DNA of 64,000 nt from Candidatus Dadabacteria bacterium (GTDB taxonomy: Bacteria > Desulfobacterota_D > UBA1144 > Nemesobacterales > Nemesobacteraceae). Positions within the stretch are counted from its first letter, which is position 1, and each line of letters starts with the position of its first letter. Position numbers and translations under genes: made by a program. A model generated the notes under the pieces. The model saw nothing but the letters and a program-made list of their open reading frames with translations, was not told where the DNA came from and searched no databases. The stretch is taken from NCBI GenBank assembly GCA_022819805.1, contig JAJEGO010000065.1:4794-68793 (forward strand), in the 5' to 3' direction. Below, in pieces: positions 18,483 to 64,000 of this stretch.

Positions 18483-18513
18483 AAAATACGTTTTTCATCT
18501 AAGGTCTCGTGGG

Positions 18514-18537
18514 TGAATAAGTATATAATTCCGATTT
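18514..18537 (+). repeat. solo copy of the IS1595-like transposon terminal inverted repeat (20/24 identical to the right IR at 63729..63752, including an exact 17-mer GTATATAATTCCGATTT)
   Basis: TGAATAAGTATATAATTCCGATTT here versus GCCAATAGGTATATAATTCCGATTT at 63731..63755. Confidence 0.5.
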
Positions 18538-60914: not shown

Positions 60915-61250
60915 TTGGGCTACCGCGTACAGGAAAGATTATGTTTCGCGTCCAGAATTTTTATGGTTTTTTGCTCCCACCCGAAAACGATTCTTTACAG
61001 CCTTGGTATCTCACTTTTGCTTATTTTCCCTTTTTTTAGGCTTTTTCTCAACAGTGGTTTGTCATTCAAGGGCTCTTTGCCCCGTGGGAGACTGCCTCCT
61101 GCGTGTTGCCTGCGCTTTGCTTAAAAAGGCGGAATTATTTGTTTGATAAGAAATTTAAAATTCCAACTCAGGCACACGCTGCCTGATGCGAGAAATCGAA
61201 ATGCATAGAGAAGGTCTAAAAAAAACGAACACACATATATATAATTTCTT

Positions 61251-61274
61251 TCGGAATAATATACCTATTGGCTT
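61251..61274 (+). repeat. left terminal inverted repeat of the IS1595-like unit
   Basis: See mobile element. It overlaps the last codons of the nuclease ORF. Confidence 0.7.
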
Positions 61275-61927
61275 TTGAGTAATTTTAGCACATTTTCTTC
61301 CAGCTTCAAGCGGTCAGGGTTTTCGTAGAAATCCAAGACTGCCTTAGGGTTGTTTTTCCTTGTTTGGTCAAACGCTTTTCTGATATACACCCCAAAGCCA
61401 TATTTCTGCTTCTTGCCTTCCCATTCGTTCCGTTTTCTCTGGTATTCCTTCAATCCCTTGTCAAAGAAATCATGAAGGTTTCTTGCCTGTTGAACTGTAA
61501 CAACATCCATACCGAGAAAGAAAGTAACGTCACGCTTGGGAAATGACCCGAGAAGGTAAATGCCGTTCGGTCTAGGAAGCCCGCTGTTCCATACAGGCTT
61601 GCCTGTTCGGCCTTTGTTGAATTTGGTCTCGATACAGAACAGGTAATCATCCTCAAAGATGAGGAAATCGGGATAGTTCTGTTTCCCATTAGGGGTTACC
61701 ATGAACTCTTGCTTATGCCCGTAGATGTTCGCAATGGGTTCAGCTCGTTCTTTGAGCAGGATCGCTTCTTTTATTTCTCCCCACTTCTCAGGTCTATCCG
61801 CCCGTTTGGTATATCCCTCGGACTTGATAAGTTGTTCCATCCGCTCTTCAAACTCCGTCCCTTTTCCTGCAGCCACAAACTCCGCAGGAGCTTTCCTGAT
61901 CGCCTCAAAGACGTTAGCCAGCTTCAT
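61265..61927 (-). CDS. PD-(D/E)xK-fold nuclease, candidate type II restriction endonuclease
   Basis: 220 aa. YPDFLIFEDDYLFCIETKF gives PD-x12-ExK. The ATG lies inside the region that an ON-phase methyltransferase would read through (14-nt overlap). Confidence 0.5.
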   Translation of the reverse strand: MKLANVFEAIRKAPAEFVAAGKGTEFEERMEQLIKSEGYTKRADRPEKWGEIKEAILLKERAEPIANIYGHKQEFMVTPNGKQNYPDFLIFEDDYLFCIETKFNKGRTGKPVWNSGLPRPNGIYLLGSFPKRDVTFFLGMDVVTVQQARNLHDFFDKGLKEYQRKRNEWEGKKQKYGFGVYIRKAFDQTRKNNPKAVLDFYENPDRLKLEENVLKLLKSQ

Positions 61928-62218
61928 GAAGAATCATGTACTCCCTTACCACATCGTTTTTTCGAAAACCCGGGACAACCGTGCCGCAATCATAGGCTAT
62001 TCTTTCAAAATCCATCTCCCACAGACGCTCTACAATTTCATTGTTATCTGCATCAAACAACATCCATTGCTTGTTTTTCTCACAGGCTTTGGCCGTTCTT
62101 TCCCTGCGAGTGTAATCTTGATATCCCTGTGCCGGAACGGCGAAGACAAAGCGCTTGTTGAAAACGCTTAACGCTTCCTTTGTGTTGTTGTATTGATGAA
62201 GAAGAAAATCAGAGTGAT

Positions 62219-62776
62219 TTATAGGGGGGGGGCGGATAAACGCATATCATTCCCGGCAAAAGGCAGCCGGGTCCATATCTGGAACTCGGTGTTGACTGAG
62301 TAATTTTCCTGTTTCTCGGTATAAAAAGCTTCTCTCTCAAGAGGATAAGAACCTATCCAGGCAAACTCTCCGTTCAAAAGTCGGTGGATCCGATATTTGC
62401 GGAAAGTAACTGGCAGTATGAAAGCGATGGTGTCTGCGATTTCAGAGGCCTTGTTAAAGAAATCTATTGCCAGCTTAGAGCGTTTGCCGAAAGGTGGATT
62501 CCCTATAACAACGGTCTCCTGTCTGCGATAAAAAAACGGGCGGTATGTCCAAGTCAGGAAATTCCCTTTTATAATCCCTGGATGTTGCGGTGCTATATCA
62601 ATCCCAGTTCTTCTCTCAGGCGGCAGCAGATCATAAAACGACCCTTCCCCCGCTGACGGCTCTATGTAAAAGAGGGAATCCACAAGTATTTTGGCTTGCT
62701 GTGCTTCCTGTAGAAAGTAGGTAAAACAAGCCTCGGCAATATACGGTTTTGTATAAAATTGGTCATGGGGCAACAT
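62219..62776 (-). CDS. TaqI-like gamma-class N6-adenine DNA methyltransferase, truncated at a C9 tract (phase-OFF); the full-length frame would extend to 61914
   Basis: Motif X region QFYTKPYIAEACF, motif I IEPSAGEGSF and motif IV IGNPPFGKR. The ORF ends ...LSAPPL* right after CCCCCCCCC. Inserting one C opens a further 102 codons with no stop. Confidence 0.7.
   Translation of the reverse strand: MLPHDQFYTKPYIAEACFTYFLQEAQQAKILVDSLFYIEPSAGEGSFYDLLPPERRTGIDIAPQHPGIIKGNFLTWTYRPFFYRRQETVVIGNPPFGKRSKLAIDFFNKASEIADTIAFILPVTFRKYRIHRLLNGEFAWIGSYPLEREAFYTEKQENYSVNTEFQIWTRLPFAGNDMRLSAPPL
62224..62232 (+). repeat. G9 (C9 on coding strand) homopolymeric tract inside the methyltransferase gene
   Basis: Read directly: ata-ggggggggg-cgg. 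Confidence 0.95.
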
Positions 62777-63665
62777 CCAGCATTCCCCCTATGATGTTGT
62801 CGAAAATGCGTTCCGTACTTTCTTTACGATTTCCCCATTTGAAGGCAAAATGAGAGATATAATCCCCTGCGTACTTTTCGGAAAAGTGGTGGTGCTGTCC
62901 ATAACAGCCCCTCTTCAATAACGCCCAGAAAGATTCTATCGTGTTCGTGTGAACATATCCGTTAGCATATTGTCCCGCCGAGTGATTGACTGTCATGTGA
63001 GGCATGAGTTTAAACATGCTCTTGTAAGCAGGGAACTCATCCGTCATCAATACCGCATTCTCGGTATCTACGCAGGACTGGAGGAACTCTGCGAACTTCT
63101 TGGCGGTAAGGTCTTTTTTGTTGAACGGCACAACTCTTATCTGCCCGTTTCTCTCGGCGATACCAACAACGGGAAGCTTCTTAGTTCCTCTACCCCTCTT
63201 GTTAGGTTCTCCACCCCCGTTATTCTGCTTTCTGGGCTTGCCTCCGATATAAGCCTCGTCCATCTCTACTATACCCTTAAGAAATGCCCCCTGATCTGTC
63301 TTAGTTGCCTCCCTTATCTTGCGAAGCATACGAAAAGCCGTCTTTTGAGTAACGCCTATATCCCTTGCTAACTGGCAACTTGAAAGGGATTTTTTCGCTC
63401 CTGCTTCAAGAATGATCGCCATAATCCATTTGTACATTTCAATCTTGGTATTGTGAAAAAGAGTGCCGACCGTAACGCTAAAAGAATGGTTGCAATCGTG
63501 GCAGTTCCAGCGATACCCGCTCCTTGCTTTCTTGTCCTTTTTCTTTGCTACCTTGAGGCTTCCGCAATAAGGGCAGAACGCAAACTTGGCATATCTGACT
63601 GATTCAAGAAACTCTATGCATTTTTCATGAGTTCCGTATTTTTCTAGGATTGTTGTTAAGGTCAT
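62763..63665 (-). CDS. IS1595-family transposase (Zn-ribbon plus ISXO2-like DDE domain)
   Basis: N-terminal CPYCGS...CHDCNHSFS zinc ribbon, VEMDEAYIGGKP and downstream DDE-region motifs. It ends 10 nt before the methyltransferase start. Confidence 0.85.
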   Translation of the reverse strand: MTLTTILEKYGTHEKCIEFLESVRYAKFAFCPYCGSLKVAKKKDKKARSGYRWNCHDCNHSFSVTVGTLFHNTKIEMYKWIMAIILEAGAKKSLSSCQLARDIGVTQKTAFRMLRKIREATKTDQGAFLKGIVEMDEAYIGGKPRKQNNGGGEPNKRGRGTKKLPVVGIAERNGQIRVVPFNKKDLTAKKFAEFLQSCVDTENAVLMTDEFPAYKSMFKLMPHMTVNHSAGQYANGYVHTNTIESFWALLKRGCYGQHHHFSEKYAGDYISHFAFKWGNRKESTERIFDNIIGGMLDVAP

Positions 63666-63728
63666 TTACTCTCTCTCCTTTTCTCTTAAGCAATGGTAAA
63701 ATTATACAGGAAAGAGAATCAAATGTCA

Positions 63729-63752
63729 AGCCAATAGGTATATAATTCCGAT
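63729..63752 (+). repeat. right terminal inverted repeat of the IS1595-like unit
   Basis: See mobile element. Confidence 0.7.
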
Positions 63753-63858
63753 TTCTTTTGCTTGATTAAAGGGTAGGAAAACCTCTGGCGCGGTGTTTTT
63801 TAATATAGTTATCGCCAATATAACATGAGGCGCCCCGATTTTCACCGCTACCGCCGTA

Positions 63859-64000
63859 TCAACTTTGCTTCATCTCGCATCTGCCGCCTCGCATGGCGAT
63901 GTGCCCGATGATACCAAAGAAGGTTGAGAACACCACGATTCCCGCAAGTGATAGACCGCCAACCGTGGTGGCGTACGCCGCGTAGTTGGCGTGTGCCTTG
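63859..64000 (-). CDS. C-terminal fragment of a membrane protein, 5' end outside window
   Basis: The minus-strand frame is open from the window edge: ...KAHANYAAYATTVGGLSLAGIVVFSTFFGIIGHIAMRGGRCEMKQS*. It is hydrophobic. No start lies inside the window, so it is absent from the ORF track. Confidence 0.35.
   Translation of the reverse strand, partial: KAHANYAAYATTVGGLSLAGIVVFSTFFGIIGHIAMRGGRCEMKQS

What the first reader, a model, noticed from the sequence alone, without database searches (positions are those of the whole stretch)
61251..63752. Restriction-modification gene pair carried as passengers inside an IS1595-family transposon-like unit
Two 24-bp sequences (61251..61274 and 63729..63752) are inverted repeats of each other with one mismatch. 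Between them lie exactly three co-oriented, tightly packed genes. First is an IS1595-type transposase, with its Zn-ribbon and DDE motifs seen in the translation. Second is a TaqI-like N6-adenine methyltransferase. Third is a PD-x12-ExK nuclease. TTTCTT flanks both termini. IS1595-family members are known to carry passenger genes in some cases. A complete methyltransferase-nuclease pair transported as one 2.5-kb transposable unit would be a compact vehicle for horizontal spread of a restriction-modification system. It sits at the edge of an otherwise housekeeping region, next to phoH.
Basis: partly seen in the sequence, partly recalled or inferred. Interest (0 to 1): 0.8.

Follow-up and report, generated by a model that had tools for sequence, protein, structure and literature searches.

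The report
Jumping gene carrying a restriction-modification system
A 2.5-kb IS1595-family insertion sequence in a sponge-symbiont (Candidatus Dadabacteria) genome carries a complete DNA methylase/restriction nuclease pair, has inserted as one unit at several different sites, and its methylase gene is broken at a run of nine Cs that is conserved among related copies, which looks like a built-in expression switch.

Summary
The element is window 61252-63750 (2499 bp, genes on the minus strand).

It encodes an IS1595-family transposase, a Type II N6-adenine methyltransferase (M), and a PD-(D/E)xK nuclease (R) of the EcoRV-like fold. The three genes overlap one another.

The same repeat-bounded three-gene unit occurs in other metagenomes and MAGs, in different flanks and with its own 8-bp duplications: L006, L017 and L018. 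L007 and L011 have one end at a contig end or missing. All parts are under strong purifying selection (dN/dS 0.02-0.05). This is a real, autonomous transporter IS that moves a restriction-modification system.

The kind is already known: IS1595 elements with passenger genes, and repeat-flanked RM units with 8-bp duplications (Furuta 2010).

M is frameshifted at a C9 tract. The same out-of-frame poly-C site occurs in 5 of 6 transposase-linked copies and in none of about 40 M genes without such a transposase. The part downstream of the shift is still under purifying selection. M expression, and probably that of the translationally coupled R, therefore seems to depend on slippage at this tract. 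Whether this is phase variation or programmed recoding is unresolved.

The parts
61244..61251 (.). Left copy of the 8-bp target-site duplication, ATTTCTTT
   Evidence: Identical to 63751-63758. Other copies have their own 8-bp duplications: L006 TTTAAGTT and L017 TTTCTCGA.
61252..61274 (.). Terminal inverted repeat at the nuclease end (IRL), CGGAATAATATACCTATTGGCTT. The nuclease stop codon lies inside it.
   Evidence: It matches 22/23 to the other end. The same ends occur in L006, L007 and L011.
61265..61927 (-). Restriction endonuclease gene (R, 220 aa), PD-(D/E)xK fold of the EcoRV-like branch. Its start overlaps the end of the full-length M frame by 14 nt.
   Evidence: - 63 homologues, one named 'type II restriction endonuclease' by NCBI.
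- Invariant residues E27, P86-D87 and E100-x-K102.
- AF2 model pLDDT 92.6.
- dN/dS 0.03-0.04.
61914..62226 (-). C-terminal (target-recognition) part of the methyltransferase. It is readable only in the -1 frame relative to the N-terminal part.
   Evidence: - The frame is open from the C tract to the stop at 61914.
- It matches PADLOC MTase_II PDLC03274 profile positions 194-295.
- In the shifted frame, dN/dS is 0.027-0.05 among the three C9 copies.
62224..62232 (-). C9 homopolymer (G9 on the + strand) at the conserved Pro-Pro-Pro site of M. It is one base short of being in frame. The 0 frame reads GCC CCC CCC CTA TAA.
   Evidence: -: identical C9 in the window, L006 and L011, which are 81-86% identical in nucleotides.
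- L017 has CCCCACCCCCC followed by TAG and also needs a -1 shift. L018 has C13.
- None of about 40 M genes without a closely related transposase has a long C run or a frameshift here.
62219..62776 (-). N-terminal (catalytic) part of the Type II N6-adenine methyltransferase, 185 aa up to a premature stop. It carries motif I (EPSAGEG) and motif IV (NPPF). Its start overlaps the transposase gene by 14 nt.
   Evidence: - (ORF).
- PADLOC MTase_II 1.4e-26, profile positions 12-192.
- 1257 homologues of about 285 aa align across the frameshift.
- AF2 model of the 82%-identical intact relative: pLDDT 92.3, with Foldseek matches to Erm/KsgA, M.StySJI, CamA, M.BseCI and M.EcoKI.
62763..63665 (-). IS1595-family transposase (300 aa): N-terminal CxxC...CxxC zinc ribbon, helix-turn-helix, and DDE(K) catalytic domain.
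   Evidence: Pfam PF12762 2.6e-38 and NCBIfam NF033547 1.7e-53. dN/dS is 0.02-0.055 between copies.
63701..63729 (-). Perfect sigma-70 consensus promoter, TTGACA-17-TATAAT. The -35 box overlaps the inner end of the inverted repeat.
   Evidence: 12/12 match. The motif is conserved in L006. Function is inferred.
63728..63750 (.). Terminal inverted repeat at the transposase end (IRR), the reverse complement of CGGAATTATATACCTATTGGCTT.
63751..63758 (.). Right copy of the 8-bp target-site duplication, ATTTCTTT.

Best explanation
Window 61252-63750 is an autonomous IS1595-family 'transporter IS'. It is an insertion sequence whose 23-bp terminal inverted repeats enclose both its own DDE transposase and a complete Type II restriction-modification operon.

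Shown:
- The whole 2.5-kb unit has inserted as one piece at several unrelated sites, each time duplicating 8 bp of AT-rich target.
- Transposase, M and R are all under strong purifying selection.
- The M-then-R pair is a widespread two-gene system (sponge symbionts, Helicobacter pylori, Mycoplasma) that usually has no transposase. One lineage of it was therefore captured by the IS.

Inferred:
- One consensus promoter at the transposase end, partly covered by the repeat, drives tnp-M-R as a single operon with overlapping start and stop codons.
- In this copy, and in 4 of the 5 other transposase-linked copies examined, M is interrupted at its Pro-Pro-Pro codons by an out-of-frame poly-C tract (C9 here, needing a -1 shift).
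- Full-length M is therefore made only when slippage at the tract restores the frame. R has no well-placed ribosome-binding site and starts inside the end of the shifted M frame, so it is probably made only then too.
- The restoring event could be a DNA-level length change (phase variation), RNA-polymerase slippage, or -1 ribosomal slippage on C_CCC_CCC.
- The tract would then act as a common throttle or on/off switch for the whole RM module. That would limit its cost and toxicity while it rides on the transposon.
For: Ends and mobility
- Repeats 22/23 with a perfect 8-bp TSD.
- L006 is 86% identical exactly from repeat to repeat, in unrelated flanks, with TSD TTTAAGTT.
- L017 has perfect 25-bp repeats, TSD TTTCTCGA, and the same tnp-M-R order.
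- L018 has related repeats and a 7/8 TSD.
- L011 sits beside uvrD/tsaD, and L007 beside oxaloacetate decarboxylase genes.
- Close Dadabacteria relatives (88-90% nt) lack the element.
- Element GC is 0.41-0.48, against 0.50-0.57 in neighbouring genes.

Gene identities
- Transposase.
- M: PADLOC MTase_II 2.1e-46 for the frame-corrected protein, with the two halves matching profile positions 12-192 and 194-295; fold.
- R: invariant E...PD...ExK and EcoRV/NlaIV/HincII-like fold.
- M lies immediately upstream of R in about 60 of 80 loci from many phyla.
- NCBI names the H. pylori homologues 'type II restriction endonuclease' and 'SAM-dependent methyltransferase'.

Selection
- dS is about 0.8-2.7, while dN/dS is 0.02-0.05 for tnp, M N-part, M C-part in the shifted frame, and R.

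Frameshift
- Identical C9 in three copies that are 81-86% identical in nucleotides.
- The same site is out of frame in L017 and L018.
- 5 of 6 transposase-linked copies are out of frame there, against 0 of about 40 other M genes.
- CCC is a minority Pro codon, and four-fold third-position identity between copies is only 0.43-0.57. Retention of an unbroken C9 therefore has p of about 0.015 under neutral drift (my calculation).
- There is no start codon between the tract and residue ~238 of M, so a split two-subunit enzyme is unlikely.

Coupling
- tnp/M and M/R each overlap by 14 nt. The only Shine-Dalgarno-like sequence for R sits 13 nt upstream of its ATG. L017 and L018 have none, and their start and stop codons overlap.

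Precedent
- Poly-C tracts encoding PPPP act as on/off switches in H. pylori RM methyltransferases (PMC3936762).
Against: - No transposition, methylation or cleavage has been observed. Everything rests on sequence comparison.
- All three C9-clade copies, and three assemblies of this very strain, show exactly C9. No in-frame C10 allele was seen. That is unexpected for a freely phase-varying tract, and it leaves the RM module nominally OFF in every sampled population of that clade.
- No conserved stimulatory RNA structure was found downstream of the tract, and there is no Rfam match. This weakens the ribosomal-frameshift version.
- As far as I recall, C/G runs are less established than A/T runs as RNA-polymerase slippage sites.
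- One transposase-linked copy (L007) has an intact M without any C run, so the frameshift is not obligatory.
- L018 needs +1 rather than -1, and its transposase is truncated. It may simply be decaying.
- The three frameshift occurrences (C9 clade, L017, L018) may share ancestry, so the 5/6 versus 0/40 contrast overstates independence.
- No clean empty site was found. Relatives lack a larger 4.3-kb segment that also holds the DUF7802 gene.
- The recognition sequence is unknown.
Confidence: 0.85

Rival explanations
1. The element is a live IS, but its RM cargo is dead. The frameshift inactivated M, R is inactive or silent, and the two genes are merely carried along.
For: M is out of frame in every assembly of this copy and in L006, L011, L017 and L018. 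A working R without M would be lethal, so an inactive pair is the simplest safe state. Decayed derivatives exist: L013/L014 keep M but have a transposase remnant and a degraded R, and L018 has a truncated transposase.
Against: Between copies whose synonymous sites are near saturation (dS 0.8-2.7), the post-frameshift part of M (in the shifted frame) and R show dN/dS of 0.03-0.05. That is the same as for the transposase. There are no further stops or indels in about 100 post-frameshift codons of M or 220 codons of R in three lineages. Post-frameshift identity to distant relatives (54-56%) equals pre-frameshift identity (52-54%) in L017 and L018. A pseudogene of that age would have decayed.
Confidence: 0.1
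2. The frameshift is a sequencing or assembly artefact at a homopolymer. The real gene has C10 and M is simply intact.
For: Homopolymers are error-prone on some platforms. All the data are metagenome assemblies, and no reads were available to me.
Against: The same C9 is found in three assemblies of this strain made by two pipelines (ENA scaffolds from two samples, and a Logan contig). It is also found in two diverged copies from other samples. L017 is out of frame at the same site with only a 6-nt run (CCCCACCCCCC), inside a 3.1-Mb chromosome-level MAG. About 40 other M genes assembled in the same way are in frame.
Confidence: 0.04
3. Sub-rival on mechanism: the tract is a fixed recoding site, read by -1 ribosomal frameshifting on C_CCC_CCC or by RNA-polymerase slippage, rather than a DNA-level phase-variation switch.
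For: C9 has exactly the same length in three lineages separated by dS of at least 0.76, while the flanking codons differ (TTA TCC / CTG ACT / TTG TCC). The 0-frame phasing gives a formal X_XXY_YYZ heptamer, followed by a rare CTA codon and a stop. L017 has CCC_CCC directly before a TAG stop and also needs exactly -1, although its run is too short for efficient DNA slippage. From my own knowledge, programmed -1 frameshifting and transcriptional realignment are classical in IS1 and IS3 family elements.
Against: There is no conserved downstream hairpin or pseudoknot and no well-placed upstream Shine-Dalgarno-like stimulator. L018 carries C13 and needs +1, which fits length drift better. The known precedent for poly-C/PPPP tracts in RM genes is DNA-level phase variation.
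Confidence: 0.3
4. The inverted repeats are coincidental, or belong to a plain ~1-kb IS, and the RM pair merely lies next to it.
For: Plain IS elements of this family are about 1 kb (my recollection of ISfinder).
Against: No repeat-like sequence lies between the transposase and M. Homology to L006 starts and stops exactly at the outer repeats, with 8-bp TSDs outside them. The same holds in L017. The R stop codon lies inside the repeat.
Confidence: 0.01

Closest known systems
IS1595-family transporter ISs (elements with passenger genes; the ISNwi1+/ISPna2+ groups of Siguier, Gagnevin and Chandler 2009, as cited in PMC3129680 and PMC2853133)
   Same: The transposase matches the IS1595 models and has an N-terminal zinc ribbon. 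The element has short terminal inverted repeats, an 8-bp target duplication, and passenger genes inside the repeats. The nearest transposase relatives in JGI metagenomes (43-48% identical) also sit in repeat-bounded elements of 1.6-3.0 kb that start with CGGAAT/CGGACT and carry cargo. The cargo includes an N6_N4 methylase with a putative nuclease, P63C, PIN, ClpP-like and SocA/Panacea proteins.
   Different: Here the cargo is a complete Type II M+R operon that overlaps the transposase gene. It is conserved as a unit down to 55-59% transposase identity, and M carries a conserved frameshift tract. I could not query ISfinder, so I cannot say whether a named IS already corresponds to it. The subgroup assignment (DDEK, ISNwi1-like) is from memory only.
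Repeat-flanked RM units with 8-bp target duplication described by Furuta, Abe and Kobayashi 2010 (PMC2853133): the X. oryzae XorKII unit and the N. gonorrhoeae Type IIG+S+COG3677 unit
   Same: RM genes lie between imperfect terminal inverted repeats and were inserted with an 8-bp duplication. The Neisseria unit also holds a transposase-like gene.
   Different: The X. oryzae unit has no transposase. In the Neisseria unit the RM gene is truncated, the transposase-like gene is called a likely inactivated derivative, and the authors could not say what moved it. Here the transposase is intact and under purifying selection. The RM pair is a classical separate M+R. Several independent insertions are documented.
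Poly-C (PPPP-coding) on/off switches in Helicobacter pylori RM methyltransferases, e.g. JHP1272 / HP1353-1354 (Krebes et al. 2014, PMC3936762)
   Same: A homopolymeric C run encoding consecutive prolines lies inside an RM methyltransferase ORF. An out-of-frame length gives a premature stop, and repairing the frame restores a full-length enzyme.
   Different: Those are chromosomal Type IIG fusion enzymes in a pathogen known for contingency loci, and length variation between strains has been documented. Here the tract is in a separate Type II M gene on a transposon in uncultured sponge symbionts. Its length is identical (C9, OFF) in three diverged lineages.
The chromosomal M+R homologues, e.g. 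H. pylori HUP-B14 AFI08164/AFI08165 (M 298 aa, R 243 aa)
   Same: The gene order and adjacency are the same. M is 36-38% identical and R 29-31% identical. The motifs are the same (NPPF; PD...ExK).
   Different: There is no transposase and there are no repeats, and M is in one frame in most strains. The recognition sequence of the family was not established here.
Programmed -1 frameshifting or transcriptional realignment in IS1 and IS3 family elements (my own knowledge)
   Same: A slippery homopolymeric motif inside overlapping genes of an insertion sequence sets the ratio of a short to a long product.
   Different: In IS1 and IS3 it is the transposase that is recoded, on A-rich motifs with known stimulators. 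Here the passenger methyltransferase is affected, on a C run, with no stimulator found and no experimental evidence.

Membership tests
IS1595 family of insertion sequences | Transposase with the IS1595/ISXO2-type DDE domain | tested here: met
   Pfam PF12762 2.6e-38 (131.9 bits against a cut-off of 27). NCBIfam NF033547 1.7e-53 (181.7 bits against 75).
IS1595 family of insertion sequences | N-terminal zinc-ribbon DNA-binding domain | tested here: inconclusive
   CxxC at residues 31-34 and CxxC at 55-58 are present. However, PF12760 (21.4 bits against 25.4) and NF050000 (20.6 bits against 28) both score below their cut-offs.
IS1595 family of insertion sequences | Short terminal inverted repeats and an 8-bp target-site duplication | tested here: met
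   23-bp repeats matching 22/23, with ATTTCTTT duplicated. L006 and L017 also have perfect 8-bp TSDs. That 8 bp is the family norm is my recollection of ISfinder; I did not check it.
Transporter IS (IS with passenger genes that move with it) | Non-transposition genes lie inside the repeats, and the whole unit is found at different sites | tested here: met
   M and R lie inside the repeats. Similarity to L006 spans exactly repeat to repeat, in unrelated flanks. L011, L007, L017 and L018 are in further contexts.
Transporter IS (IS with passenger genes that move with it) | Experimentally demonstrated transposition | not testable with these tools
   This needs a mating-out or papillation assay.
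Type II restriction-modification system | DNA methyltransferase with an AdoMet-binding motif and an (N/D)PP(F/Y) catalytic motif on a class I fold | tested here: met
   EPSAGEG and NPPF are present, and G43/G45 and N93-P-P-F96 are invariant in 66 homologues. PADLOC MTase_II 2.1e-46. Foldseek matches to adenine methyltransferases.
Type II restriction-modification system | Adjacent endonuclease with a nuclease fold and catalytic residues | tested here: met
Type II restriction-modification system | Intact, expressible M gene; a defined recognition sequence; matching cleavage | tested here: not met
   M is out of frame at C9 in this copy. The specificity is unknown, and activity cannot be tested here.
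TaqI-like (Pfam Eco57I/N6_Mtase/TaqI_C) methyltransferases | A match to those family models | tested here: not met
   There was no Pfam or NCBIfam hit even at E<=10 for the frame-corrected protein. Only the gamma-class motif order (I, then IV, then a C-terminal recognition domain) is shared.
Phase-variable (contingency) RM locus | Homopolymer of about 8 nt or more inside the ORF, whose length sets the frame | tested here: met
   C9 at 62224-62232, with C10 or C7 needed to be in frame. L018 has C13.
Phase-variable (contingency) RM locus | Tract-length polymorphism between or within populations, including ON alleles | tested here: not met
   The window strain (three assemblies), L006 and L011 all have C9, and no ON-length allele was seen. 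Read-level data were not available.
Programmed -1 ribosomal frameshift site | X_XXY_YYZ slippery heptamer in the 0 frame | tested here: met
   GC[C CCC CCC] CTA TAA. A shift of -1 gives the conserved ...APPPINHSDF... sequence.
Programmed -1 ribosomal frameshift site | Conserved downstream stimulatory structure or upstream Shine-Dalgarno-like element | tested here: not met
   Only a weak 6-bp A/U hairpin was found. There is no structure shared with L017, and there is no Rfam hit.

The most novel reading that the evidence does not exclude
The out-of-frame poly-C tract is a selected, fixed recoding signal of a mobile RM module, read by -1 ribosomal frameshifting or by RNA-polymerase slippage. Only a small, constant fraction of transcripts or ribosomes would yield full-length methyltransferase. 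Only those ribosomes would go on to translate the overlapping nuclease gene. The transposon would then deliver a restriction-modification system whose dose is hard-wired low and whose nuclease can never be made without the methylase. That is a safety and establishment device not described for RM systems or for IS cargo.
Probability: 0.25. Interest if true: 0.8.

Novelty: new variant of a known kind. Interest (0 to 1): 0.6.

Why it matters
RM systems are thought to behave as selfish mobile elements. Clear cases in which a complete M+R pair sits inside an autonomous minimal transposon, with several documented insertions, are few. The published examples lack a working transposase or have a truncated RM gene.

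This family gives a clean, 2.5-kb natural 'RM transposon'. It occurs in sponge-symbiont genomes of different lineages: Candidatus Dadabacteria, a Gammaproteobacteria MAG, and an unclassified bacterial MAG. As I recall from the literature, such communities are rich in both RM systems and transposases.

The poly-C frameshift in the methylase is found almost only in the transposase-linked copies. It suggests that mobile RM modules need a throttle or switch. It also offers a directly testable model for how a toxic cargo is kept tolerable while it is spread by transposition.

Tried and rejected
Searches that found nothing
- Exact repeat pattern in JGI metagenome contigs: 0 hits.
- Whole element (blastn) and R protein (tblastn) against PLSDB plasmids: nothing relevant, only a weak Mycoplasmopsis chromosome-like record. 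There is no evidence of plasmid carriage.
- Pfam, NCBIfam and PDB sequence searches for M and R: essentially empty. Identification needed homologue alignments, AF2 models and PADLOC.
- Rfam on the element: no match.
- RNA folding downstream of the tract: no conserved stimulator.

Empty site
- Exact-PhoH contigs all carry the element.
- Relatives with 97-98% PhoH identity lack a larger 4.3-kb segment.

Transposase relatives
- The transposase-based scan of JGI metagenomes found only relatives at 48% identity or less, none with this RM pair.

Readings rejected
- A split two-subunit methylase: there is no start codon for about 55 conserved codons after the tract.
- Internal IS ends at 62748/63709: no such repeat exists.
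- Chance inverted repeats.

Not achieved
- The Siguier 2009 IS1595 paper is not in the library. Statements about IS1595 subgroups are therefore from memory.
- The recognition sequence and REBASE name of the RM family could not be determined.

Full report
**1. What is in the sequence**

The region was read directly and ORFs were listed. All three genes lie on the minus strand.
- A 300-aa ORF at 62763-63665.
- A 185-aa ORF at 62219-62776, overlapping the first by 14 nt.
- A 220-aa ORF at 61265-61927.

The repeat finder reports one outstanding inverted repeat, 61251-61274 with 63728-63751, 24 nt and 96% complementary. The next best is 78% over 23 nt.

Comparison with other copies places the true termini at 61252 and 63750. 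The 23-bp repeats are CGGAAT[A/T]ATATACCTATTGGCTT. They are flanked by a perfect 8-bp direct repeat, ATTTCTTT, at 61244-61251 and 63751-63758.

**2. The three genes**

Transposase. It matches Pfam DDE_Tnp_IS1595 (2.6e-38) and NCBIfam IS1595 (1.7e-53). The zinc-ribbon models score just below their cut-offs, although CxxC...CxxC is present.

Methyltransferase and nuclease. Neither has a Pfam, NCBIfam or useful PDB sequence match, so I used homologues and structure.

Nuclease.
- It has 63 homologues in the 5.8-billion-protein set, one named 'type II restriction endonuclease' by NCBI.
- E27, P86-D87 and E100-x-K102 are invariant in 53 aligned sequences.
- An AlphaFold model built on that alignment has mean pLDDT 92.6.

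Methyltransferase.
- It carries EPSAGEG (motif I) and NPPF (motif IV).
- Joined across a frameshift, it aligns end to end with more than 1200 proteins of about 285 aa.
- PADLOC's REBASE-derived MTase_II model PDLC03274 matches the 185-aa part at profile positions 12-192. It matches the shifted-frame continuation at 194-295, and the joined protein at 2.1e-46.
- The model of the 82%-identical intact relative (pLDDT 92.3) resembles adenine-N6 methyltransferases: Erm, KsgA, M.StySJI, CamA, M.BseCI and M.EcoKI.
- It is a gamma-class N6-adenine enzyme, but not a member of the Pfam TaqI/Eco57I families.

**3. The RM pair is a real, widespread two-gene system**

A scan of one genome per GTDB species with the nuclease alignment gave 80 loci. 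In about 60 of them a homologue of this methyltransferase lies immediately upstream of the nuclease on the same strand. They include many sponge-associated MAGs (Poribacteria, Gammaproteobacteria, Acidobacteria, Dehalococcoidia), Mycoplasma relatives and Helicobacter pylori.

The H. pylori proteins are named 'type II restriction endonuclease' and 'SAM-dependent methyltransferase / type II methylase' by NCBI. Most of these pairs have no transposase nearby.

**4. The whole unit moves**

The exact proteins occur only at this locus, in the same strain, assembled from several samples. Diverged copies of the entire unit occur elsewhere.
- L006 (another sample): 86% identical in DNA from exactly the first to the last base of the repeats. 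Its flanks are unrelated and its own 8-bp duplication is TTTAAGTT.
- L011 (81%): beside uvrD/tsaD/GmrSD. Its contig ends inside R.
- L007 (75%): beside oxaloacetate-decarboxylase genes. Its contig ends at the last base of the repeat.
- L017 (a 3.1-Mb MAG chromosome): transposase 59% identical, the same tnp-M-R order, perfect 25-bp repeats and the duplication TTTCTCGA.
- L018 (Gammaproteobacteria UBA6724): related repeats, a 7/8 duplication and a 5'-truncated transposase gene.
- L013/L014: a transposase remnant, an intact M and a decayed R, so this is a degenerate copy.

The host is Candidatus Dadabacteria, judged from PhoH homologues at 95-98% identity that carry this name. Relatives at 88-90% DNA identity keep the flanking synteny. 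They lack window 61056 up to about 1.4 kb beyond the window end, which is the element plus the neighbouring DUF7802 gene. They have 44 nt in its place. The element is therefore not ancestral here, but no clean empty site was found.

Element GC (0.41-0.48) is below that of neighbouring core genes (0.50-0.57).

**5. Selection**

Nei-Gojobori estimates between the window, L006, L011 and L007 give dS of about 0.8-2.7, which is near saturation. dN/dS is 0.02-0.055 for the transposase, 0.024 for the M N-part and 0.03-0.04 for R. The transposase and both cargo genes have therefore been kept functional while the element spread.

**6.

The 185-aa ORF ends because a C9 run (62224-62232) is one base short: GCC CCC CCC CTA TAA. 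The conserved continuation (...PPINHSDFLLHQYNNT...) is in the -1 frame and runs to 61914.

Distribution of the frameshift.
- The window, L006 and L011 all have exactly C9, although the flanking codons differ.
- L007 has CACATCACCGCC and is in frame.
- L017 is out of frame at the same codons (CCA CCC CCC TAG) and also needs a -1 shift.
- L018 has C13 and needs +1.
- Across about 45 M genes examined at this site, only the copies linked to a closely related transposase are out of frame: 5 of 6. None of the other ~40 has a long C run.

Evidence that the downstream part is still translated.
- In the shifted frame, the post-frameshift part has dN/dS of 0.027-0.05 among the three C9 copies.
- There is no start codon for the first ~55 conserved codons after the tract, so a split enzyme is unlikely.

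Evidence that the tract itself is maintained. CCC is a minority proline codon in these genes. Four-fold third positions are only 43-57% conserved between copies. An unbroken C9 in all three lineages is therefore unlikely under neutral drift, at roughly 0.015 by my calculation.

An assembly artefact is unlikely. Two pipelines and five datasets agree.

**7. How it most likely works**

Shown: the anatomy, the mobility as a unit, the purifying selection, and the conserved out-of-frame tract.

Inferred:
- A perfect TTGACA-17-TATAAT promoter at 63729-63701 overlaps the inner end of the repeat. It would drive tnp, M and R as one operon. Binding of the transposase to its end could then repress it.
- M has a GGGGGA ribosome-binding site 7 nt upstream of its start.
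- R has only a poorly spaced one, 13 nt upstream. In L017 and L018 it has none. Its ATG lies 11 nt before the stop of the shifted M frame. This suggests that R is translated by ribosomes finishing full-length M.

The tract would then gate M and R together. The frame could be restored in three ways:
- by a change in DNA tract length. Poly-C tracts encoding PPPP are documented on/off switches in H. pylori RM methyltransferases (PMC3936762);
- by RNA-polymerase slippage;
- by -1 ribosomal slippage on C_CCC_CCC.

The identical C9 in three lineages, and the 6-nt run in L017, lean towards a fixed recoding signal. The C13 in L018, the absence of any stimulatory structure and the H. pylori precedent lean towards phase variation. 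I cannot decide between them without reads or experiments.

**8. Comparison with what is known**
- IS1595-family elements with passenger genes ('transporter ISs') were described by Siguier et al. 2009. That paper is cited in PMC3129680 and, for M genes linked to IS, in PMC2853133. The original is not in the library.
- Furuta et al. 2010 reported RM units between inverted repeats with 8-bp target duplications. One in X. oryzae has no transposase. One in N. gonorrhoeae has a truncated Type IIG gene and a probably inactive COG3677 transposase-like gene.
- The nearest transposase relatives in JGI metagenomes (48% identity or less) also sit in repeat-bounded elements of 1.6-3.0 kb with CGGAAT-type ends. 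Their cargo includes a different methylase with a putative nuclease, P63C, PIN, ClpP-like and SocA/Panacea genes.

The kind is therefore known. What is new here is an intact, autonomous, repeatedly inserted Type II M+R transposon family in sponge symbionts, together with the frameshift tract that is specific to transposase-linked copies.

**9. Verdict**

I rate it a new variant of a known kind, of moderate to good interest (0.6). The main open question is whether the poly-C tract is a phase-variation switch, a programmed recoding site or, least likely, a tolerated defect.

Noticed in passing
window 18511-18533 (core 18519-18533): AAGTATATAATTCCG matches the terminal 15 nt of the element's inverted repeat at 14/15. 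It lies in the intergenic region between a methylmalonyl-CoA mutase subunit gene and queC. None of 100 shuffles gave any match. It may be a solo-repeat scar of a lost copy, or a repeat-derived outward -10 box upstream of queC.
   Followed up: partly
window 61056-64000 and beyond (L001 4297-8610): Dadabacteria relatives at 88-90% nt identity lack a 4.3-kb segment holding both the element and the adjacent 372-aa DUF7802 gene, and have 44 nt in its place. The element therefore sits inside an already variable islet. The origin of the DUF7802 gene is unexplained.
   Followed up: partly
window 63966 and 61259 (ends of contigs L002 and L003): Two independent assemblies break at window 63966, inside the 3' end of the DUF7802 gene. 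The Logan contig also ends at 61259, one base from the only mismatch between the two repeats (61258). This hints at strain heterogeneity or a second context for the element's end in that sample.
   Followed up: no
L013 5887-7300 and L014 (NGUY21-1 sample): This is a decayed copy of the unit. It keeps a 36-residue transposase remnant, an intact in-frame methyltransferase (82% identical, no C run) and a degraded nuclease, and it has no recognisable repeats. It looks like a route from a mobile RM to an orphan methyltransferase. L012 (83%) is another orphan M in the same sample series as the window.
   Followed up: partly
L007 4830-5744: A second, only 25%-identical IS1595-type transposase gene lies head to head, about 430 bp upstream of the intact-M copy of the element. 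This may be an insertion hotspot or nested IS.
   Followed up: no
L104 674-3034 (JGI Ga0169931_10083589): A 2.36-kb repeat-bounded element has a 46%-identical transposase. It carries a different cargo pair: an N6_N4 methylase (PF01555, 2.4e-20) and a 229-aa protein with an EPDF...ELK motif and no Pfam match. This may be a second, independent capture of an RM pair by this IS group.
   Followed up: partly
L025 4169-6654 (Acidimicrobiales MAG OZ220474.1): A 31%-identical IS1595-type transposase gene lies directly upstream of an intact M+R pair of this family, but no bounding repeats were found. This may be another association, or a decayed element.
   Followed up: partly
L070, L079, L088, L093 (Helicobacter pylori strains): Some H. 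pylori copies of the homologous RM pair have M or R split into several tblastn segments. In L070 one break falls at the same residue, 182/183, of M. Frameshifts therefore also occur in the chromosomal homologues. The nucleotide context was not examined.
   Followed up: no
window 61026-61048 / 61207-61229: A 23-nt inverted repeat (78%) with 158 nt between its arms lies in the AT-rich spacer between phoH and the element. Its significance is unknown.
   Followed up: no
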